Shown here one piece after another: positions 716 through 38,092 of a stretch of DNA of 54,477 bases (position 1 is the stretch's first letter; every line of letters starts with the position of its first letter). A model generated the notes under the pieces. It had not been told where the DNA came from and did not search any database. It was given only the letters and a program-made list of their open reading frames with translations. Source of the stretch: a virus; the IMG/VR virus record IMGVR_UViG_3300037313_000433, positions 1-54,477 of that record, one strand, 5' to 3'. A program made the position numbers and the translations under genes.

Positions 716-1716
716 AGCAATTTGCCCGGTCTCACGGCTCTGAGATGACCTTTGGCGTTGCGGCTGCGCGCTGGTGGGCTGAAGTTGGCATCCACAACAA
801 TGAGAATGGTCACGCCACTGCGGAGAGAAATCTGCGCTGGCTGATCAAGTCTGTCGGCGCGAACACCGCGCTTCGCGATATCGATGACAATGTCGTGGCT
901 CGGGTGGTCGCAAAGCGGCGAGGAGAGCGCGTCAAAGGGAAGAAGGACGCGCGGCACGTATCCCCAGCGACGGTCAATCGGACGTGCACACAGCCATTGC
1001 GGGAAATCATCCTTCGCGCGGGCAAGGTCTGGAAGGCGAGTGTCGGGGAGATCGATTTCGGCAAGCACATGCTGAAGGAGCCGAGAGAGCGAGTCAGAGA
1101 GGCCAGCGTTGACGAGGAGGCTGCAATCCTGGCTGAACTCGGGGAAGGATATGACGCTGCGGTGCGCTTCGCCTTCCTATCTGGATGCCGGCGAATGGAA
1201 ATCCTCGGCCTGGAATGGCCGCACGTTGATTTCTTCTCGCGCCGCTTCACCGTTACTGGCAAGGGCAATAAGATCCGCACAATTCCAATGTCGCAGGCGA
1301 TCTATGATCTACTGTGGGCGGAGAAGGATCACCACAAGACGAAGGTCTTCACCTTCGTGGCGCGCCGGACACTGAAGCCGCTGAAGTTGGTCAAGGGTGA
1401 GAGATACCCGTTGACGGAGTCCGGCCTGAAATCGGCAATGCGCCGTGCGGTGCCGGCGGCCAAGGTGAGCGATTTTCGTTTCCACGACACGCGCCACACC
1501 GCGGCGACACGCACGCTACGCACGTCGAATTTGCGGGTGGTGCAGAAGCTGCTCGGTCACTCCGATGTCGAGACGACAGCGAAATACGCCCATGCACTTG
1601 ATGAGGACATAAGAAGCGCCTTGGACGCTGCGGCGACTAAGAGTCCCACGAAAAGTCCCACGAGCACCATATACACAAGACGTAAGATATTGGGGAAGAA
1701 GGGGAAAAAGGACTGA
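565..1716 (+). CDS. int: tyrosine recombinase (phage integrase)
   Basis: 383 aa; C-terminal catalytic signature FHDTRHTAATR...LLGHSDVETTAKYAH (R, HxxR, Y). Confidence 0.92.
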   Translation: MSVYKRKAAETYSYDFWLGGRRFSGDTGETNKREAIAAEKRKRAEQAVAVEQFARSHGSEMTFGVAAARWWAEVGIHNNENGHATAERNLRWLIKSVGANTALRDIDDNVVARVVAKRRGERVKGKKDARHVSPATVNRTCTQPLREIILRAGKVWKASVGEIDFGKHMLKEPRERVREASVDEEAAILAELGEGYDAAVRFAFLSGCRRMEILGLEWPHVDFFSRRFTVTGKGNKIRTIPMSQAIYDLLWAEKDHHKTKVFTFVARRTLKPLKLVKGERYPLTESGLKSAMRRAVPAAKVSDFRFHDTRHTAATRTLRTSNLRVVQKLLGHSDVETTAKYAHALDEDIRSALDAAATKSPTKSPTSTIYTRRKILGKKGKKD

Positions 1717-1892
1717 GGCGACTTTTCCCCCAGTCAAGTGCGCTACCAGGCTGCGCTACACTCCGGCCGTGGAGAAGCCTTTATATTCAAGCCATTTAGC
1801 AAGCAAGCCAAAAATCCAGATATTTTGAAATTTGGAACAAACCGAGTAGAAATGCGTACGATGGAACAACGAGTCCCACGAAAGTCCCACGG
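1641..1892. other. attP candidate: tRNA-derived core flanked by arm-type repeats
   Basis: GAGTCCCACGAAA(A)GTCCCACG occurs at 1641-1664 and 1871-1892, on either side of a 39-nt tRNA 5' half (1727-1765); immediately downstream of int. Confidence 0.6.
1727..1765 (-). other. tRNA 5'-half fragment (acceptor 5' strand, D-arm, 5' anticodon stem and loop; anticodon position reads GGG, Pro-like); not a complete tRNA
   Basis: Minus strand reads CGGAGTG TA GCGC AGCCTGGTA GCGC A CTTGA CTGGGGG. The following bases (AAAAG) cannot pair with the anticodon stem and no T-arm follows. Confidence 0.65.
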
Positions 1893-1920
1893 GACGTTCA
1901 TCAATCGTTCCGAGGTGATT

Positions 1921-2022
1921 ATGCCACCCATGCGCCAAGCCGAAATCATCTGGATGATCGTCTTCGTGCTGCTGCCGATCGCGCTTGTCGTTGGATTGGC
2001 GCATAAGTTTGGATGGATATAG
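1921..2022 (+). CDS. 33-aa hydrophobic membrane peptide (candidate)
   Basis: GAGGTG RBS 4 nt before ATG; MPPMRQAEIIWMIVFVLLPIALVVGLAHKFGWI contains one TM helix; AT-richer cargo region. Confidence 0.35.
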   Translation: MPPMRQAEIIWMIVFVLLPIALVVGLAHKFGWI

Positions 2023-2031
2023 GAGAGAGAA

Positions 2032-2508
2032 ATGCGCATTTATCCGGCAGGCATGGAAGACAGGCATGTGCTCGAAGAGACGAACGACATCGCCTTGCGC
2101 TTTTTTATGGGTCCGAGACTCCTAAAAATGAAATACGGTGAAGCGGCAAATATACCAGGACCGGTTGTCCGCAAAGCGTGGCACCCAACTGGAGATCACG
2201 ATCACTCCTTTGCTGGGGCGATGAGAGCTATTTCCTTATCTAACAGTGGAAACCGCCCGGAATCAAGCTACACGACAGAAGAGCGTATACAAATGGATCT
2301 CGATGACAGTTTCGAGGTCGCGTATTATCCGCACGATGATCAATGGATTTTCAGGCGGAAACTTGCGTGCTGTCCGCATTGTCATGGATTTGGGCGAGTA
2401 AGGAAGATATCTGAAATGCCGCCTGTTGCCTTTGTGGATTACATGAAAATACCGTTCTCCAGCATTGAGAAAGTCGAATACGAAACCTGCAAACATGACC
2501 CAGCGTGA
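2032..2508 (+). CDS. hypothetical protein (158 aa, C-terminal CxxC...C/H cluster)
   Basis: Strong RBS AGGAGAGAGA before ATG 2032; strand opposite to the late operon; AT-richer than surroundings. Confidence 0.6.
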   Translation: MRIYPAGMEDRHVLEETNDIALRFFMGPRLLKMKYGEAANIPGPVVRKAWHPTGDHDHSFAGAMRAISLSNSGNRPESSYTTEERIQMDLDDSFEVAYYPHDDQWIFRRKLACCPHCHGFGRVRKISEMPPVAFVDYMKIPFSSIEKVEYETCKHDPA

Positions 2509-2770
2509 ACGCCAACTGAAATATTCGTGGGAAAGGACATGGGCCGACCGAGAGACGGACTATGTCGCCAAGGACGGTGAGATCAGGTTCGGCCGAGTGC
2601 AGCTGCACACCACCGGCCCGGAGAAAGTCTGGACATGGCATCTATGGGGCGATGCCTTTGCTGATTTCTCGGTGCAGTCCTTGAACGGATCGCACCCTGA
2701 CAAAATTGAAGCCTGCCGGGAATTGGAAGCCGCCTATGATGCGGCGAAGGCGAAGGCTACCCGCGCTTGA
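2495..2770 (+). CDS. hypothetical protein (91 aa)
   Basis: Internal ATG (MTQRERQ...) of ORF-track 2465..2770; follows the 2032 gene on the same strand. Confidence 0.5.
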   Translation: MTQRERQLKYSWERTWADRETDYVAKDGEIRFGRVQLHTTGPEKVWTWHLWGDAFADFSVQSLNGSHPDKIEACRELEAAYDAAKAKATRA

Positions 2771-32831: not shown

Positions 32832-33286
32832 CCTGCTCTCCTGCGGCGATCATCCAACAAGTCGCCCTGATCAATACCAAAAACACGCTTCACCCGCTCG
32901 TACATTTGGCCGGCCATTGCGCAGCGACGCGGAATGATCCCGTCGAGGTCACGCGCCCAATCCTGAAGCCAGGCGATAGGAAGCCCGTCCACGAACTTAA
33001 ACCACCGTTCCGGATCACCGGGTAGCAGATCGGGGAAATTCCTCTCCACGGCCTTTATGGTGTCTGAGAGCGCCCACATCGTCGGGGCGTCGAGCACCGT
33101 CTTCCTGACATTCGTTTCTTTCCATGTGAGGATGATGAACCGAGCGTGCTCAAAGCCGCGATGGTTGACGATCTTCTGTAGGCTGCGCACCGCTTTCGTC
33201 TGCCCCGGGCGCGGATGGCCGCTCGAGGGGATTACTTCCACCCCGAATTCAGTCAGGATTGCCATGGCCTCGGGACAATCAATCAT
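32828..33286 (-). CDS. hypothetical protein (152 aa)
   Basis: ATGA-coupled ORF. Confidence 0.5.
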   Translation of the reverse strand: MIDCPEAMAILTEFGVEVIPSSGHPRPGQTKAVRSLQKIVNHRGFEHARFIILTWKETNVRKTVLDAPTMWALSDTIKAVERNFPDLLPGDPERWFKFVDGLPIAWLQDWARDLDGIIPRRCAMAGQMYERVKRVFGIDQGDLLDDRRRRAG

Positions 33287-33732
33287 TCAGCCGCCGCCTT
33301 CGCCGCTTCCATCTTTCGCAGCGTGTATAGGATGGTCGAATGATCGCGGTGGAACAGACGGCCCAATTGCGGGAGACTGAGCCGCGGGAAGTTCTCTCTC
33401 ACCTCGACAATCAATTGCTGGCGAGCCTGCCATACCGATTTCTTGCACCTGGAATTGGCGATGATCAGGTCATAGGTCACGCCGAGCTCTGGCGCGCGCT
33501 TTCTCATGTAGGCGGCAGGCCGAGTGCCAAATTCGATATTGTGCCGATACCAATCATCGACATGGGCTGAGAACGAGACCGATTCTGTTTTCCATAGAGG
33601 CGGCGGCGCAGGCGGAGTAATAGTTAGAATGATAGTATTACCGCGTTTCCCGCGCAGTCTGATCCACCGCTCGGCATAGGCGGCGCGCATCTCAGATGTG
33701 TTGGCGTATTGGGTGGCCTTCACCTGGATCAT
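33283..33732 (-). CDS. DnaA domain IV-like helix-turn-helix DNA-binding protein
   Basis: C-terminus SRCKKSVWQARQQLIVEVRENFPRLSLPQLGRLFHRDHSTILYTLRKME resembles the DnaA C-terminal DNA-binding domain. Confidence 0.6.
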   Translation of the reverse strand: MIQVKATQYANTSEMRAAYAERWIRLRGKRGNTIILTITPPAPPPLWKTESVSFSAHVDDWYRHNIEFGTRPAAYMRKRAPELGVTYDLIIANSRCKKSVWQARQQLIVEVRENFPRLSLPQLGRLFHRDHSTILYTLRKMEAAKAAAE

Positions 33733-34031
33733 CCGGCGATCTCCTTCAGCGCCTTCCGGAGCTTCATTTCGACAAAGGCGCGCTTGCCGCTCTTGCTCCG
33801 CGGCTGTGCTGGCAGTTTCACTTGTCCAGGAGAGAGCCGGATGGCTTCTATCCGCTGCTCTGCTTCATATAAGCGACGCCAGGCGAAGCTTTCCGCTTGC
33901 CAGCGGTCATGGAACACCCGGACCTGCCCGCGCTCGTCTGTGACCTTCATTTGGGCGGTCGTCCAGTAAGGTGAGTAGATCGCGACATAGCCCGAGCCGT
34001 TCCATTGGGAGAATGCGTGGGAGGTGTTCAT
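33729..34031 (-). CDS. hypothetical protein (100 aa)
   Basis: ATGA-coupled ORF. Confidence 0.45.
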   Translation of the reverse strand: MNTSHAFSQWNGSGYVAIYSPYWTTAQMKVTDERGQVRVFHDRWQAESFAWRRLYEAEQRIEAIRLSPGQVKLPAQPRSKSGKRAFVEMKLRKALKEIAG

Positions 34032-35569
34032 GCTGCGTCATCCCTTTCGGCCATGATCTCCTCGACCATCTGAATCCGCCGCCCTATCCAACGCATAACG
34101 TTGACGGCCATAGAATTCCCCAAGGCTTTGTACTGAGGGCCATCGGGGGATTCAGGCTTGCCGCGCCAAGGGATGTTGCAGAAGCCGTCCCTGAAGCCCT
34201 GTAGGCGGTGGCACTCTGTCGGCGTAAGACGGCGGACTGCCCACGCTGATTGAATCGCTTGGACTTCCTGTCTTGCCTCCAAAGTGTAGGCGATACCCTC
34301 TTGAACGCCGACGCCATCAGGGCCGCTCTCCGGGTTCTCTCGCAGCGCTCCAGCCTGAATGGCGATCGCCCCAACGCCTATTCCAGCGCGGCCACCGTTC
34401 GGCGTGAGAACAGCATTGGCCGTGCCGTCCTGTCGCCATTCGAGATCAGGCTCGCCATTGCGGCCACGGATGGCGAGTGTCATAGGATAGGCGACAGCCT
34501 GCCCGCGCTCACTAACGGTGAATGCAGGATCGCCTATTTCGCCGACACCGACTCCTGGCGCTCCACCAGAGCCAGACGATCGAACATTCGTGATCTTCTC
34601 ACCGCGGCTGGCTTGGCGCATATCGATTGGCACTATAGGCGTTCCCCGCCCCGTGCCGTCCTCACTGGCGTCGAATCCTTCGCCTCGCAGGCTGTGTGCG
34701 ACGAAGGTCTCACTCTCGAAATCCATCCTCCCAGCCGGACCACCATGAGCGTTTACTGCTGTAGCTACGTCAATTGGGCCTCTTGTGTTGTTGCCACCGA
34801 AAGGCAACAGTCCGCCGTCGAGGTCGAAATCGGTTCCGAGTCCGCCACCGCCTGTAGGGCGCGAGCTAATTGTGGGGGCAACGTCTTTCCCCGCTTCTCG
34901 GCGCGGCGGAGAATCCCCGCGCATGCCTTCGCGCTCAAGTAATACCGCTGCGGCACGTCGCCAGTCTCCAAGATATCCGACAACGAACACACGCCGTCGT
35001 CTCTGAGGGACAGCCCGCCCAAATCCGTCCACTCGGATATATTGAGCGTCAAGCACTCGCCATGCGAGGCCGTATGCGCCTTGGTAGCCTGGGACAACTC
35101 CCGCATTCCGCCATCCATCGTGAGGGACTTCAACCCTTCTCCCGGAGAGCAATCCCAGAAGGCTTGCAAATCCTCGTCCTCCATCGTCCGAAAGGACGCC
35201 GGGGACGTTTTCCCAGACCACCCACGAGGGGCGATATCGTTGAGCAATGGCACCAAAGGTGAGCATGAGGTTGCCACGCGGGTCATCCAGTCCCTTGCGG
35301 AGGCCGGCGACCGAGAAGGATTGGCAGGGCGTTCCTCCGACAAGAAGGTCAATTGCATAGTCTGGCCACTCCTCGAATTTGGTCATGTCGCCAAGGTTGG
35401 GGACGCCGTTCGATGACGGCTCCTCCCCTGGCATGTTGCTGCCGTAGTGGTGCGCAAGCACGGCGGAGGGGAATTTCTCGATCTCGCTGAAGAAGGCCGG
35501 TGACCAGCCGAGCGGATGCCAAGCATGCGTTGCCGCCTCGATGCCAGAACAGACGGAACCGTACATCAT
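34028..35569 (-). CDS. dcm: DNA (cytosine-5)-methyltransferase
   Basis: Motif I GSVCSGIEA, IV GGTPCQSFS, VI ENVPG, VIII PQRRRRVFVVG, IX/X LQGF...ALGNSMAVNV. Start MMYGS is ATGA-coupled to the upstream regulator; the longer 627-aa ORF extension is rejected. Confidence 0.9.
   Translation of the reverse strand: MMYGSVCSGIEAATHAWHPLGWSPAFFSEIEKFPSAVLAHHYGSNMPGEEPSSNGVPNLGDMTKFEEWPDYAIDLLVGGTPCQSFSVAGLRKGLDDPRGNLMLTFGAIAQRYRPSWVVWENVPGVLSDDGGRGFASLLGLLSGRRVEVPHDGWRNAGVVPGYQGAYGLAWRVLDAQYIRVDGFGRAVPQRRRRVFVVGYLGDWRRAAAVLLEREGMRGDSPPRREAGKDVAPTISSRPTGGGGLGTDFDLDGGLLPFGGNNTRGPIDVATAVNAHGGPAGRMDFESETFVAHSLRGEGFDASEDGTGRGTPIVPIDMRQASRGEKITNVRSSGSGGAPGVGVGEIGDPAFTVSERGQAVAYPMTLAIRGRNGEPDLEWRQDGTANAVLTPNGGRAGIGVGAIAIQAGALRENPESGPDGVGVQEGIAYTLEARQEVQAIQSAWAVRRLTPTECHRLQGFRDGFCNIPWRGKPESPDGPQYKALGNSMAVNVMRWIGRRIQMVEEIMAERDDAA
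34765..35358 (-). CDS. candidate overlapping gene: 197-codon alternative-frame ORF nested in the methyltransferase gene
   Basis: Same strand, shifted one base; balanced protein-like composition; GAGGAG 10 nt upstream of the ATG; see findings. Confidence 0.3.
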   Translation of the reverse strand: MQLTFLSEERPANPSRSPASARDWMTRVATSCSPLVPLLNDIAPRGWSGKTSPASFRTMEDEDLQAFWDCSPGEGLKSLTMDGGMRELSQATKAHTASHGECLTLNISEWTDLGGLSLRDDGVCSLSDILETGDVPQRYYLSAKACAGILRRAEKRGKTLPPQLARALQAVADSEPISTSTADCCLSVATTQEAQLT

Positions 35570-35874
35570 CCTGCTTTCCTCACCAGCCGATAGCCGAGAA
35601 ACCGCTCCCATGTGATTTCCCACCCGAGCGGCTCTATCTTCTTGCGGATGTGCGTCAGGCTCGACTGCACACAGTTCCTTGCGCTCTCCGGGCCGCCGTC
35701 CGGGTGGTCTCGATAGACAGAGTCCACGATCTGGTCGTTCGAGACCAAAGCGCCCTTGGCTTCCATCAGCCGCAACAGGACTGAGCGCTGAAGCGCGCTT
35801 AGCTTTACGCATGCGAGTTCCGGCGCGTATGGCGATGTCGAGTGCTGGTAGCCGCAGTTGGGGCAGATGGTCAT
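35566..35874 (-). CDS. Zn-ribbon + OmpR/PhoB-type winged-helix DNA-binding protein
   Basis: CPNCGY... then LSALQRSVLLRLMEAKGALVSNDQIVDSVY...VQSSLTHIRKKIEPLGWEI...GYRLV. Confidence 0.65.
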   Translation of the reverse strand: MTICPNCGYQHSTSPYAPELACVKLSALQRSVLLRLMEAKGALVSNDQIVDSVYRDHPDGGPESARNCVQSSLTHIRKKIEPLGWEITWERFLGYRLVRKAG

Positions 35875-37322
35875 CAGAACAACTCCCGTTCCTGGTGCCG
35901 GCGGGAGACATACCGGGTGTAAAGTGCCTCGAACTTTAGCTCCTCGCGCAAGGAAGGGTCACCGAAGCGTGACTTTACGACTCCGACCTCTGCAATGTCC
36001 TTCCACTGCTCCTCGGCGCCGAAGACCTTGTTGATGCGCTTCCAATCTTGATCGGAGGCGGCTATCGCGGCGCGCTCCTCGCGGTATTTCTCCGGTCGGT
36101 AAAGCCACAGGATCGCGTCATAGTCGGCCTTGGCCCCTTCCCCACCATATAGGTCTCGAGCGATCGGCCGCGGGTTGTCCCGCTTAGTCCCCTCGCTATT
36201 GCGCTGGTTCAGGATCATGACCGCAGACGAGGTTTCATCGGCGAAGGATTTGAGCTCTACCGTCACGTCACCCGAGATGCGGTCGGCCGAAAGCTTCGGA
36301 TCGCGCGGCTTCACCTTGCCAATATGGTCGATCACGATCAGCGGTGTCTTGCCGTTGCCGTAGCGCTTCACGAAGCGGCGCCCGTAGGCGACCAGCTGGG
36401 AAACGCCTTCCCGCTGGCAGCGGATAATTTCGAGCGGCCGGTGGTTCACCCACATCGCGAAATCCAGGCACTTGTTCTGCTCTTCAGGCTTCAGGAACTT
36501 TTGCGGGTCACGCTGCCGGCGAACTTCGATTCCGTGGACCTGGGCAATCATCTGCCGCACGCATTGGCCCGCAGACTGGTCATAGGAGAGGAACAGAACC
36601 GGGTGGCCACAATATACCGCATGATAGATGATCTGCATTGTGAGGCTCGTCTTGCCCTCGCCGGAGCTCGACAGGAAGCCGTAGAGATTGCCGGCCTCGA
36701 ACACAGGCTCGGATAGCACCTTGGCTATTTCAGGCAGGCAGATCGGGACACCGGCAACGCCATCCTTGGCGATCGAGCCCTCGAACATTTTCAGATAAGC
36801 GTCGCCGGCTGAAACCCGCGAGGCGTCACCGGTGCGCTCCGTTCTGATCTCCGCGAGCTGATCCTCAACTGATTTGATATCGTCCGGGATTTCGAGTTCG
36901 TGCTCAAAGGCGATGTCGATCAGCCTGTTTCCGTTCTGGATGAGCCGGCGGCGGTCGGCGCCATCCATGATGGCTGATACCAGCCCTGCCGCGCCTGCTG
37001 GCCCTACCGCCTCGCGCAGCATGGCAGCAAGGTATTGGCCGAAGGTCAATCCCCCGATTGTATCTGGAGCTCCTGGTAGAGCCGTCTTGACCGAAAGAGG
37101 GTTAACCAGTTTGCCGGAAGCGTGCAGCCGTTTCATTTCCCGGAACAGCGCGGCGTGAAAGTCGTCCTCGAAATGCCGGTCATCGAATTCTGTCGGCAGT
37201 TCATCGAGCAAACCGTTGTGCATCATCAGGCAGCCGAGCAGGTTCTGCTCATTCTCTGTCTGTGACGGCAACTCTCGGCGGATCGGCGCCGGATTATCCC
37301 GTGCTGCTGCCATGGCGGTCAT
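35874..37322 (-). CDS. dnaB: replicative DNA helicase (DnaB family)
   Basis: DnaB N-terminal ENEQNLLGCLMMHNGLLDEL; Walker A SSSGEGKTS; internal ATG chosen after the upstream stop. Confidence 0.8.
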   Translation of the reverse strand: MTAMAAARDNPAPIRRELPSQTENEQNLLGCLMMHNGLLDELPTEFDDRHFEDDFHAALFREMKRLHASGKLVNPLSVKTALPGAPDTIGGLTFGQYLAAMLREAVGPAGAAGLVSAIMDGADRRRLIQNGNRLIDIAFEHELEIPDDIKSVEDQLAEIRTERTGDASRVSAGDAYLKMFEGSIAKDGVAGVPICLPEIAKVLSEPVFEAGNLYGFLSSSGEGKTSLTMQIIYHAVYCGHPVLFLSYDQSAGQCVRQMIAQVHGIEVRRQRDPQKFLKPEEQNKCLDFAMWVNHRPLEIIRCQREGVSQLVAYGRRFVKRYGNGKTPLIVIDHIGKVKPRDPKLSADRISGDVTVELKSFADETSSAVMILNQRNSEGTKRDNPRPIARDLYGGEGAKADYDAILWLYRPEKYREERAAIAASDQDWKRINKVFGAEEQWKDIAEVGVVKSRFGDPSLREELKFEALYTRYVSRRHQERELF

Positions 37323-37339
37323 TCGTTTGTCGTGGGCGT

Positions 37340-38092
37340 TCACCGGTAATCCTCCGCGCGTTCGAGTTGCTTGCGGCACGGCGGGATCCAGACCAGTTTC
37401 GTCCCTGGCACGTCTCTCATCCACACCAGCCAGCAATAGGCCGTGGCCGTGGAGCCGTCAGCGGTCAGCCGGCCTTTGACCATTGGGACGCGCTCGGTGA
37501 ATTGGGCGACGATGTTGGGAGGATCGACGGAGAAAAGGTTTTGGTAGCGCCCGACGCCTTCCAGAAAGGATGTTCGGACAATCATGGCCACGCCAACCTT
37601 AGCGATCTCGCGGGCTCGGGCGATGAACTGTTCAGCGAGCCGAAATGGCGGGTTGCTGATAATCCAGTCGACACCTTGGGCGGCGATGCATGGCGACTCG
37701 GATCCTGGCCAAAGGAAATCGATCACGCGCTCCTGGCCATCATATTCAGCGCTGTAATCGAAGATGTCGGAGGTGAAGACCCGTCCGAAGTATTCCGCCA
37801 ACGGCCTGGCCATATGACCGCGGTTGCAAGCTGGCTCCCAGACCTTCAGACCTTCGATGGGGAATTTCGGCGGGATGATTGCACCGTTGGGGCAGACGAT
37901 GTCTCTGGTGAGCTGCTGGTGGCGATAAAGCACGGTGTCGGGGCAGGATTGATTCCAGTCAGGTTTGCCGAGCCGGAAGATCACATGCTCGCACAACGCC
38001 CGCGTCGCCCATGGCTGCGTCGGAAAATCATCCAGGCTGTCGTGCGGCTCGACACGCTGCGCCATGACTGCGCTCGAGGTGTTCTGTGCCAT
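37340..38092 (-). CDS. DNA methyltransferase, amino-methyltransferase type (NPPF motif; N6-adenine or N4-cytosine)
   Basis: VWEPACNRGHM (SAM-binding-like) and DWIISNPPF catalytic motif. Confidence 0.7.
   Translation of the reverse strand: MAQNTSSAVMAQRVEPHDSLDDFPTQPWATRALCEHVIFRLGKPDWNQSCPDTVLYRHQQLTRDIVCPNGAIIPPKFPIEGLKVWEPACNRGHMARPLAEYFGRVFTSDIFDYSAEYDGQERVIDFLWPGSESPCIAAQGVDWIISNPPFRLAEQFIARAREIAKVGVAMIVRTSFLEGVGRYQNLFSVDPPNIVAQFTERVPMVKGRLTADGSTATAYCWLVWMRDVPGTKLVWIPPCRKQLERAEDYR

What the first reader, a model, noticed from the sequence alone, without database searches (positions are those of the whole stretch)
34765..35358. Protein-like 197-codon alternative-frame ORF nested in the conserved core of the C5-methyltransferase gene
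The MTase frame across this stretch carries the universally conserved motifs (GGTPCQSFS, ENVPG, PQRRRRVFVVG), so it is certainly coding.

Shifted by one base on the same strand, an ATG at 35358 (GAGGAG 10 nt upstream) opens a 197-codon ORF. Its product (MQLTFLSEERPANPSRS...GECLTLNISEW...CSLSDILETGDVPQRYYLSAKACAGILRRAEKRGKTLPPQLARAL) has balanced composition. It is unlike the Arg/Ala/Pro/Ser-rich products of the many spurious off-frame ORFs in this GC-rich window. The L-x-D-I-L-E...Y-Y-L-S segment resembles, from memory and unverified, a motif seen in target-recognition regions of C5 methyltransferases.

By eye, third positions of the alternative frame are mostly G/C, while third positions of the MTase frame are mixed here. 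In the MTase N-terminal part outside the overlap they are G/C-rich. Caveat: alternative-frame position 3 equals MTase position 1, which is G-rich because of the Gly/Ala/Val/Asp/Arg content, so this skew is not decisive.

The region could be dual coding (overprinting) inside an anti-restriction enzyme gene.
Basis: partly seen in the sequence, partly recalled or inferred. Interest (0 to 1): 0.7.

Follow-up and report, generated by a model that had tools for sequence, protein, structure and literature searches.

The report
Hidden second gene inside phage methyltransferase
A second protein is encoded one base out of step inside this phage DNA cytosine-methyltransferase gene; the arrangement is kept by selection in related genes of phages of many bacterial phyla (including phage P1), and the protein carries a standard piece of such enzymes that the main protein lacks.

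Summary
The 197-codon +1 ORF (34765-35358, minus strand) has its own GAGGAG plus ATG.

In 80 homologues picked by the methyltransferase (MTase) frame alone (GC 39-69%), the +1 frame stays open for about 150-210 codons. About 4 stops per gene are expected by chance, and the +2 frame is open for only about 30 codons.

From motif VIII to about 40 codons downstream, the +1 peptide is 80-100% conserved and the MTase peptide only 20-50%. The three-base periodicity of variation switches to the +1 frame there, and both signals end at the ORF's limits.

The conserved C-terminal module (…CSLSDILE…RYYLSAKACAGILRRAEKRGK.LP) is homologous to the segment that ordinary C5-MTases carry in frame just after motif VIII. 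The main frame of this family lacks that segment.

The closest precedent is M.EcoHK31I, whose essential β chain lies in another frame inside the α gene. Split actinophage MTases also start their second gene in this +1 frame.

My best explanation is a separately translated β-like polypeptide that works with the MTase. That function is inferred, not shown.

No Pfam or NCBIfam family and no paper was found, although the family has 4,726 cluster representatives among public predicted proteins.

The parts
34028..35569 (-). Host gene: phage-type C5 DNA cytosine methyltransferase, 513 aa (frame 0), with motifs I, IV, VI, VIII, IX and X in one polypeptide
   Evidence: PF00145 E 3.5e-35; phrog_116 and phrog_864 methyltransferase regions; motifs read directly from the translation
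34765..35358 (-). Embedded +1-frame ORF, 197 codons plus stop (the finding)
   Evidence: 2153 homologous predicted proteins and 4726 representatives at 50% identity. Open in 80 MTase-selected homologues. Expected 3.5 stops, P = 0.022 for this gene.
35369..35374 (-). Shine-Dalgarno-like GAGGAG, 10 nt upstream of the alt ATG; lies in MTase codons F-E-E-W
   Evidence: Direct reading. AAGGAG, GAGGAG or AGGAG with 7-10 nt spacing recurs upstream of the homologous start in most family members.
35356..35358 (-). Start codon ATG of the embedded ORF (MTase codons Y-A, taT Gca)
   Evidence: Among MTase-selected homologues whose +1 frame is open from motif IV, most have ATG about 10 codons upstream of the PCQ codon; about 15 lack ATG and have TTG or GTG nearby, so their start is not pinned. 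The MTase residues there are variable.
35383..35385 (-). Upstream +1-frame stop (TGA inside MTase G-D-M-T: gac aTG Acc) that bounds the open +1 stretch
   Evidence: same position in most homologues (open run begins about 57 codons before ENVP)
34843..34992 (-). Most conserved part of the alt product (residues 123-172, VCSLSDILETGDVPQRYYLSAKACAGILRRAEKRGKTLPPQLARALQAVA). It overlaps the end of MTase motif VIII, the 'VLLERE' element and the poorly conserved MTase linker.
   Evidence: Alt identity 0.8-1.0 against MTase identity 0.2-0.5. Periodicity switches to the alt frame. AF2 pLDDT 95-97 for helices 143-156 and 162-174. Homology to the canonical post-motif-VIII segment.
34976..35008 (-). MTase motif VIII (PQRRRRVFVVG), read in +1 as ..LRDDGVCSLSD..
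   Evidence: Direct reading
34850..34975 (-). MTase-frame linker (YLGDWRRAAAVLLEREGMRGDSPPRREAGKDVAPTISSRPTG). After 'VLLERE' it has no counterpart of the canonical VGDILE..KYxLS..W.G..RK segment.
   Evidence: hhalign of the MTase-frame family against canonical MTases leaves those canonical columns unmatched; low MTase-frame conservation
35312..35338 (-). MTase motif IV (GGTPCQSFS), read in +1 as EERPANPSR
   Evidence: Direct reading

Best explanation
The +1 ORF is a genuine second gene inside the methyltransferase gene.

Shown: it is kept open, it has its own ribosome-binding site and start codon, and it is under purifying selection across phages of Proteobacteria, Firmicutes, Actinobacteria and Cyanobacteria. 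In its last ~50 codons that selection is stronger than the selection on the MTase frame.

Shown: this C-terminal module is homologous to the segment that ordinary C5-MTases carry in frame directly after motif VIII (F.FP.P - VGDILE - KYYLS - helix). The main polypeptide of this family lacks that segment.

Inferred: the ORF is translated independently from the MTase mRNA into a ~20 kDa protein. The N-terminal ~120 residues are mostly disordered, their sequence largely dictated by MTase motifs IV-VIII. The C-terminal module is folded and helical.

Inferred: this protein acts as a beta-like partner of the methyltransferase. It would supply in trans the displaced hinge / variable-region-proximal segment, as the embedded beta chain of M.EcoHK31I supplies motif IX.

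The arrangement probably descends from a split enzyme whose second gene began in the +1 frame inside the first, as still seen in actinophages.
For: Openness. In 80 loci chosen by the MTase frame only, the +1 frame is open for 150-215 codons around motif VIII and the +2 frame for about 30. Synonymous resampling expects a mean of 4.2 +1 stops; P(open) has a median of 0.01 per gene and is lowest at low GC. For the N part alone, 77 of 86 genes are open against 2.5 expected stops.

Selection. Observed +1 identity is 0.36 against a null of 0.245 in the N part and 0.64 against 0.22 in the C part. It is at the null before and after the ORF. Nucleotide identity by MTase codon position is .68/.73/.34 outside and .54/.72/.73 in the C part. 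The Tyr of motif VII is TAT in 65 of 72 genes, against 45% TAT overall; this keeps a Met in the alt frame.

Start signals.

Breadth. tblastn finds the peptide in the +1 frame of annotated MTase CDSs of an Escherichia P1-like phage (RCS47) and of Vibrio, Streptococcus, Ruminococcus, Mycobacterium and Enterobacter phages. The family has 4726 representatives.

Homology to the canonical segment. hhalign score 29.2, P 4e-4, aligned to the columns right after motif VIII; 0 of 200 column shuffles reach that score. The alt peptide of phage 5093 matches the in-frame segment of Bacillus phage H2 at 16/29 identical, E 4e-7, and matches the window alt product at E 6e-9. The MTase frame lacks the segment.

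Precedents. M.EcoHK31I beta lies entirely in another frame of alpha and both chains are required (PMC2836561; PMC3404938). Actinophages RedBird and Juno112 annotate a second MTase gene that starts in the +1 frame 65-80 codons inside the first; in Relief the annotated overlap is only 23 nt (about 8 codons), although the +1 frame is open 54 codons further upstream.
Against: There is no expression, interaction or activity data. Translation is inferred from evolution only.

AF2 gives a confident fold only for residues ~140-175 (mean pLDDT 63), and there is no structural or sequence match in the PDB.

Here the main polypeptide keeps all ten motifs, unlike EcoHK31I alpha, so a partner may not be needed.

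The homology to the canonical segment rests on a short module (~30-60 residues).

The need for the segment in C5-MTase folding or activity was not tested.

Confidence: 0.6

Rival explanations
1. The alt ORF is a real, selected protein, but its function is independent of methyl transfer. It could be a regulator of MTase expression or another early phage function (anti-defence, DNA or RNA binding through the basic helical module) that merely shares the DNA.
For: The main polypeptide has all ten MTase motifs, so it may be self-sufficient. The product is mostly predicted disordered with a short basic helical hairpin, as in many overlapping viral accessory proteins. It has no hit in any curated family.
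Against: The module is homologous to a structural segment of C5-MTases that the main frame has specifically lost. The ORF is tied to this MTase clade in phages of very different hosts, which argues for an MTase-linked rather than a host-specific role. In some variants the alt frame gains a module resembling the MTase's own target-recognition modules.
Confidence: 0.25
2. The conserved +1 module is reached by programmed +1 ribosomal frameshifting from the MTase frame near motif VIII. This would give a truncated isoform (motifs I-VIII plus the canonical segment) rather than an independently initiated protein.
For: The strongest +1 conservation begins right at motif VIII. Such an isoform would restore the canonical order motif VIII - LSDILE - KYYLS.
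Against: The +1 frame is kept open for about 100 codons upstream of motif VIII in 77 of 86 genes, against 2.5 expected stops. Most members have an ATG preceded by a Shine-Dalgarno-like motif about 10 codons upstream of the PCQ codon; in about 15 the start is only a nearby TTG or GTG. The +1 identity upstream is also above the null (0.36 vs 0.245). No slippery run is visible in cagagacgacggcgtgtgttcgttgtcgg (read by eye, not tested formally).
Confidence: 0.08
3. The ORF is a chance open frame in GC-rich DNA. Its apparent conservation is a by-product of strong constraint on the MTase frame, or it is a decaying relic of a former split gene.
For: The window has 59% GC and many long spurious ORFs. 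Part of the +1 sequence (e.g. GKT on W-E-N, EERPA on GGTPC) is dictated by MTase motifs.
Against: The frame is open at 39-44% GC, where 4-10 stops are expected. The +1 frame is better conserved than the MTase frame where the MTase is least constrained, and the variable position is the alt wobble. The controls before and after the ORF sit at the null. The arrangement persists between MTases only about 30% identical.
Confidence: 0.03

Closest known systems
M.EcoHK31I (heterodimeric C5-MTase of E. coli HK31; alpha and beta chains)
   Same: A second polypeptide is encoded entirely within the MTase gene in a different reading frame. It carries a conserved MTase element that the main chain lacks. 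In EcoHK31I both chains are required, and N-terminal truncations of beta progressively weaken its association with alpha (PMC2836561; PMC3404938).
   Different: In EcoHK31I the displaced element is motif IX and alpha lacks it. Here the displaced element is the segment just after motif VIII, and the main chain keeps motifs I-X. EcoHK31I belongs to a restriction-modification system; this is a phage orphan-type MTase. Sequence relatedness could not be tested. A requirement for the alt product is not shown here.
Split C5-MTases with overlapping genes in actinobacteriophages (RedBird gp71/72, Juno112 gp41/42, Relief gp78/77); two-subunit M.AquI
   Same: In RedBird and Juno112 the second gene starts in the +1 frame inside the first, upstream of motif VIII; in Relief the annotated start lies at the very end of the first gene, though the +1 frame is open 54 codons further upstream. 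The +1 'SGM' sits on the same MTase 'LGY' codons as in the window's family. M.AquI shows that C5-MTases can work as two chains split in the variable region (PMC3404938).
   Different: In those enzymes the first gene stops after motif VIII and the +1 gene runs on through the target-recognition region and the C-terminal motifs. In the window the MTase frame runs through to motif X, and the +1 ORF stops about 25 codons after its conserved module.
Overprinted overlapping genes of viruses (general class; review PMC8227390)
   Same: A long same-strand overlap with selection on both frames. The most constrained part of one frame lies where the other is least constrained. The product is largely predicted disordered.
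   Different: The conserved module is not a de novo sequence; it is homologous to an in-frame segment of ordinary C5-MTases.
dcm-vsr overlap in E. coli (from my own knowledge, not checked here)
   Same: A C5-MTase gene overlaps, in the +1 frame, a functionally linked gene.
   Different: That overlap is only a few codons at the 3' end, and Vsr is a folded endonuclease unrelated to this product.

Membership tests
C5 DNA cytosine methyltransferase (Pfam PF00145) - host gene | Conserved motifs I, IV (PCQ), VI (ENV), VIII (QxRxR), IX and X (GNS) in one polypeptide | tested here: met
   PF00145 E 3.5e-35. SVCSGIEA, GGTPCQSFS, ENVPG, PQRRRRVF, RRLTPTECHRLQGF and GNSMAVNV read in the translation.
M.EcoHK31I-type MTase with embedded beta polypeptide | Second ORF lies entirely inside the MTase gene in another reading frame | tested here: met
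   34765..35358 lies inside 34028..35569, frame +1
M.EcoHK31I-type MTase with embedded beta polypeptide | Embedded ORF carries a conserved MTase element that the main chain lacks | tested here: met
   The alt module aligns to the canonical post-motif-VIII segment. The MTase frame has a gap there. The element differs from EcoHK31I, where it is motif IX.
M.EcoHK31I-type MTase with embedded beta polypeptide | Both polypeptides are required for methylation and they associate | not testable with these tools
   Needs a silent knockout and trans-complementation, or binding assays
M.EcoHK31I-type MTase with embedded beta polypeptide | Sequence homology to EcoHK31I alpha/beta | not tested
   The sequence is not in the accessible collections; no supplement is held
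Split alpha/beta C5-MTase with overlapping genes (actinophage type) | First gene ends shortly after motif VIII | tested here: not met
   The window MTase frame continues for 513 aa through motifs IX and X
Split alpha/beta C5-MTase with overlapping genes (actinophage type) | The +1 gene continues into the target-recognition region and motifs IX-X | tested here: not met
   The alt ORF stops at 34765, about 79 codons after the Q of motif VIII
De novo overprinted gene | The new frame has no homology to pre-existing proteins | tested here: not met
   The C-terminal module is homologous to the in-frame segment of canonical C5-MTases
Functional overlapping (dual-coding) gene | The frame is kept open beyond expectation, and purifying selection on the second frame is bounded by the ORF | tested here: met
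Programmed ribosomal frameshift site | Conserved slippery sequence at the frame junction and no need for an independent start | tested here: inconclusive
   No slippery run seen by eye near motif VIII. A start codon and SD-like motif in most members (ATG in most, only TTG/GTG in about 15), and an open upstream frame, argue against it. No formal scan was done.

The most novel reading that the evidence does not exclude
A large clade of phage C5-methyltransferases, including the enzyme (Dmt) of phage P1, may in fact be two-chain enzymes. Their hinge / variable-region-proximal segment would have been moved into the +1 frame and be delivered by a separately initiated, mostly disordered polypeptide. 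That embedded polypeptide may control assembly, activity or even target choice: some variants add a recognition-like module to it in the alt frame. Current annotation would then miss a required subunit in thousands of phage genomes.
Probability: 0.4. Interest if true: 0.85.

Novelty: new variant of a known kind. Interest (0 to 1): 0.8.

Why it matters
Long same-strand overlapping genes with firm evolutionary support are rare in phages and bacteria, and annotation pipelines forbid them.

Here one is conserved across phages of at least four bacterial phyla and sits in a well-studied enzyme class. It includes the methyltransferase (Dmt) of the model phage P1.

It also explains a recurring annotation error. 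Gene callers often report the alt ORF plus a truncated methyltransferase.

If the product is a subunit or regulator of the enzyme, three things follow. Expression of these methyltransferases from codon-optimised synthetic genes would silently destroy it. Predictions of phage methylation specificity would be incomplete. The M.EcoHK31I curiosity would become the first example of a widespread design.

The case is directly testable with mutations that are silent in one frame.

Tried and rejected
Curated families. Pfam, NCBIfam and PADLOC scans of the alt product gave nothing. PHROGs gave only a weak hit to phrog_16143, 'DNA methyltransferase' (E 3e-4); I suspect, without having checked, that this family is the alt ORF as called in some phages.

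Solved structures. A PDB sequence search with the family profile gave nothing at E <= 10. Foldseek of the AF2 model against the PDB gave no match with E <= 0.001, and the model is confident only for two helices.

Full alt alignment A2 against the phage H2 MTase. hhalign produced an uninformative hit caused by N-terminally extended members. A focused comparison of the C-terminal module worked.

Negative controls. I expected distant MTases to lack the ORF. Bacillus phage H2 and Citrobacter Citrof4 do lack it. Streptococcus phage 5093 and Brevundimonas Bambus turned out to carry it, and the Gordonia and Mycobacterium enzymes carry a different +1 peptide.

Long 'alt + MTase C-terminus' proteins. 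I considered these as evidence for a natural beta subunit in this family. The two loci examined look like a deletion (L092) and a 1-nt frameshift in a metagenome-assembled genome (L099), so I do not rely on them.

N-terminal Q-L-[TS]-[FMI]-[FL]. It resembles a sliding-clamp-binding motif (from memory). It is largely dictated by MTase motif IV codons and is absent from the P1-like and Firmicutes members, so I dropped it.

EcoHK31I sequence. I tried to fetch it and failed.

Literature. Five of the seven literature searches and paper look-ups were aimed at this ORF; none found a description of it.
Full report
**1. What is there**

The minus strand carries a C5 DNA cytosine methyltransferase (MTase) gene at 34028..35569. 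It encodes 513 aa, starting MMYGSVCSGIEAAT (PF00145 E 3.5e-35). The longer ORF that the ORF listing shows up to 35911 is an upstream read-through of the frame.

The gene's ATG overlaps the stop of a small Trans_reg_C gene (ATGA). A DnaB-type helicase lies upstream and a DnaA_C-like HTH protein downstream. This is a phage or prophage replication module.

The quoted motifs and product are exact.

The composition claim also holds. MTase-frame GC3 is 0.78 before the overlap, 0.55 within it and 0.61 after it. GC3 of the alternative (alt) frame is 0.73.

**2. Is it more than a chance ORF?**

The alt product has 2153 homologous predicted proteins. A profile of them finds 4726 representatives at 50% identity among 1.84 billion proteins, 3502 of them at E <= 1e-10.

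I examined two genomic contexts. In both, the 'hypothetical protein' is again the +1 ORF nested in a homologous MTase. The gene caller had preferred it to the MTase N-terminal half, even where the MTase ORF is intact.

tblastn against GenBank phages finds the peptide in 131 records. In every case inspected it lies at offset +1 of the annotated MTase CDS. These are Escherichia phage RCS47 (P1-like dmt), Vibrio K453, Streptococcus Javan105, Ruminococcus NatCom_3870, Mycobacterium NihilNomen and Enterobacter CobraSix. P1 and P7 themselves are among the hits.

To avoid selecting on the alt frame, I collected 80 viral loci with MTase-frame patterns only. They have 50-70% identity to the window MTase and GC of 0.39-0.69.

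In essentially all of them the +1 frame is open for 150-215 codons. The open stretch runs from about 57 codons before ENVPG to 55-80 codons after the Q of motif VIII. The +2 frame is open for only about 30 codons at the same place.

Resampling synonymous MTase codons with each gene's own usage predicts 1.4-10 (mean 4.2) +1 stops in the interval. P(open) has a median of 0.01 per gene. It is 0.000-0.002 in most genes at 39-44% GC and 0.022 for the window. For the part upstream of motif VIII alone, 77 of 86 genes are open against 2.5 expected stops.

**3. Selection on the alt frame**

I built a codon alignment of 38 MTases that are less than 70% identical to each other.

- Upstream of the ORF, MTase identity is 0.5-0.8, +1 identity is 0.2-0.3, and identical codons at identical residues are about 0.35.
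- From motif IV to motif VIII, +1 identity is 0.3-0.5 and identical codons are 0.45-0.6.
- From 'RVFVVG' to about 40 codons downstream, +1 identity is 0.8-1.0, MTase identity only 0.2-0.5, and identical codons 0.8-1.0.
- After the alt stop everything drops to background.

Against a synonymous-shuffle null, +1 identity is 0.357 vs 0.245 in the N part and 0.639 vs 0.220 in the C part. It is 0.265 vs 0.253 before the ORF and 0.115 vs 0.110 after it.

Nucleotide identity by MTase codon position is .68/.73/.34 before the ORF. In the C part it is .54/.72/.73. The variable position there is the wobble of the alt frame, not of the MTase frame. This rules out an RNA or DNA element or a by-product of MTase constraint.

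A local example: the Tyr of motif VII 'GY' uses TAT in 65 of 72 genes, against 45% TAT for all Tyr codons. This preserves the Met of the alt 'SGM'.

**4. Start signals**

In the main subfamily most members have an ATG about 10 codons upstream of the PCQ codon. About 15 members lack an ATG there and have only a TTG or GTG nearby, so their start is not pinned. It is preceded by AAGGAG, GAGGAG or AGGAG (within MTase F-(K/E)-E-W) at 7-10 nt, although the MTase residues there are variable.

A second subfamily comprises the P1-like, Vibrio, Enterobacter and Firmicutes members. It starts 10-25 codons before ENVPG, at MTase 'A(N/D)AID' (aATGcaa) or 'TNG'.

**5. What the product looks like**

AlphaFold2 with a 107-sequence alignment gives mean pLDDT 63. 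Only residues ~140-175 are confident (pLDDT 95-97). They form two helices, KACAGILRRAEKRG and PPQLARALQAVA. The first ~120 residues are low-confidence with a few short helices.

There is no Pfam, NCBIfam or PADLOC family, no PDB sequence match and no fold match.

**6. Relation to ordinary C5-MTases**

A profile of the alt C-terminal module (86 sequences) was aligned to a profile of 119 small Dcm-like MTases. It lands on the columns right after motif VIII ('F.FP.P....VGDILE..vd.KYtIS.klW.G..RK...GKGFGY'), with score 29.2 and P 4e-4. None of 200 column shuffles reaches that score (mean 12.4, max 24.5), and the reversed alignment scores 12.9.

The small MTase of Streptococcus thermophilus phage 5093 (GC 0.40) has a 138-codon +1 ORF ending ...VCSLLDILEENVDEKFFLSQEMTQRLITNAQK. 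That peptide matches the in-frame LREILEEYVDEKYYLSEEKTSKLIEQIEK of the Bacillus phage H2 MTase at 16/29 identical, E 4e-7. It also matches the window alt product at E 6e-9.

Conversely, I aligned the MTase-frame family to the canonical profile. 'AAVLFERE' pairs with 'F.FP.P', and the VGDILE-KYxLS columns are left without a counterpart.

So the segment that standard enzymes carry in frame between motif VIII and the recognition region is missing from the main polypeptide here. It is encoded in the +1 frame instead, on nucleotides that also encode motif VIII, 'VLFERE' and a poorly conserved linker. H2 and Citrobacter phage Citrof4 have the segment in frame and have no long +1 ORF: 16 and 5 stops in 200 codons.

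**7. Precedents**

M.EcoHK31I is a natural heterodimer. [quoted passage not shown] Alpha has motifs I-VIII, the recognition domain and motif X. Beta carries motif IX. Both chains are needed, and truncating the N-terminus of beta progressively weakens association (PMC2836561; also PMC3404938, which notes two-subunit M.AquI and fragment complementation with breaks between motif VIII and the recognition domain).

In actinophages the annotators list two overlapping 'DNA methyltransferase' genes:

- RedBird: 1441..1989 and 1793..2518.
- Juno112: 1492..2091 and 1853..2650.
- Relief: 1402..1935 and 1913..2497.

The second gene is in the +1 frame. In RedBird and Juno112 it starts 65-80 codons inside the first gene. 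In Relief the annotated overlap is only 23 nt, though the +1 frame is open 54 codons further upstream. The first gene stops after motif VIII, and the second runs on through the recognition modules and C-terminal motifs. Its N-terminal '..PTSGMTR..' sits on the same MTase 'LGY' codons as 'NSGMGSP' in the window's family.

**8. Interpretation**

Shown:
- The ORF is a conserved, selected, separately startable coding region.
- Its conserved module is a displaced canonical MTase segment.

Inferred:
- It is translated as a ~20 kDa beta-like chain that associates with the MTase and supplies that segment in trans. Alternatively it regulates the enzyme.
- The arrangement descends from a split enzyme with overlapping genes, after the main frame became continuous.

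I put 0.6 on this package. About 0.95 of my belief is that the ORF is a real gene, and about 0.4-0.45 that it is an MTase partner.

Rivals:
- An MTase-independent function: 0.25.
- A frameshift isoform: 0.08.
- Chance or relic: 0.03.

**9. Novelty**

Five literature searches or look-ups aimed at this ORF found no description of it. [quoted passage not shown]

Because M.EcoHK31I and the split actinophage genes exist, I class this as a new variant of a known kind. It is notable for its breadth, for coexisting with a full-length ten-motif enzyme, and for the identity of the displaced segment.

Noticed in passing
L091 (1-1397) and L100 (1-943); proteins P0096, P0122, P0133-P0137 and others: In one subfamily, about 50 codons are inserted between the usual SD (KFEEW) and motif IV. 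In the alt frame the insertion reads as a module very like the MTases' own target-recognition modules (VYAIQATVIDRTEKAGPQGRGWSEDVMFTLNTADRHAV), making an N-terminal extension of the alt protein. In the MTase frame it reads as a Cys-containing loop (CxC...CxxC). About 15 of the top 150 representatives look like this, judged from match offsets and 3 sequences read.
   Followed up: partly
P0100/L092 (546-1511), P0121/L099 (2501-3628), P0132, P0139, P0185, P0188, P0205, P0234, P0245: Proteins of about 310-415 aa in which the complete alt protein continues in frame into the MTase recognition region and motifs IX-X. The two loci examined are a deletion (L092) and a 1-nt frameshift after GGGGFGTDFEAAGG in a metagenome-assembled genome (L099). 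They could be mutants or assembly errors, or working split enzymes.
   Followed up: partly
L094 (CDS 1174-2508, Gordonia phage Fitzgerald) and L098 (CDS 1141-2601, Mycobacterium phage Hamulus): Single-ORF actinophage MTases have +1 open runs of 104 and 117 codons across motif VIII. These read M(D)LFS.HS.PYSET.PTSGMTRNG.LLPLP...SSSPT(L)PTPRATDGTKGGPNQ, a module of the same type as the in-frame LLPTPxAxD repeats further downstream in the same enzymes.
   Followed up: partly
L005 895-4182 (Escherichia phage RCS47 dmt): The P1-like Dmt carries a large intein-like insertion inside motif IV (GGTP|CFTAGHMVL...VVHN|CQAFS). The +1 ORF there starts downstream of it.
   Followed up: no
window 35566-35874 (-) and 35566-35569: A 102-aa Trans_reg_C (winged-helix) gene ends with a TGA that overlaps the MTase start (ATGA), which suggests translational coupling. 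DnaB-type helicase at 35874-37436; DnaA_C-like HTH protein at 33283-33732.
   Followed up: partly
window 34877-35404 (MTase gene nt 166-693): blastn at 60-80% identity links this stretch of the window to phages of Vibrio, Mycobacterium, Enterobacter, Burkholderia and Roseobacter. In the listed hits the matches largely fall in this stretch, which lies almost entirely inside the dual-coding stretch; the two best hits (Pan4, DMCA) also extend beyond it.
   Followed up: no
L008 1787-2904 (Mycobacterium phage NihilNomen genes 123/124): The MTase is annotated as two genes (231 aa with motifs I-VIII, then 116 aa in another frame with motifs IX-X), with the alt ORF (MTSDQLDLFPSAEF...) nested in the first. 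This may be another split arrangement.
   Followed up: no
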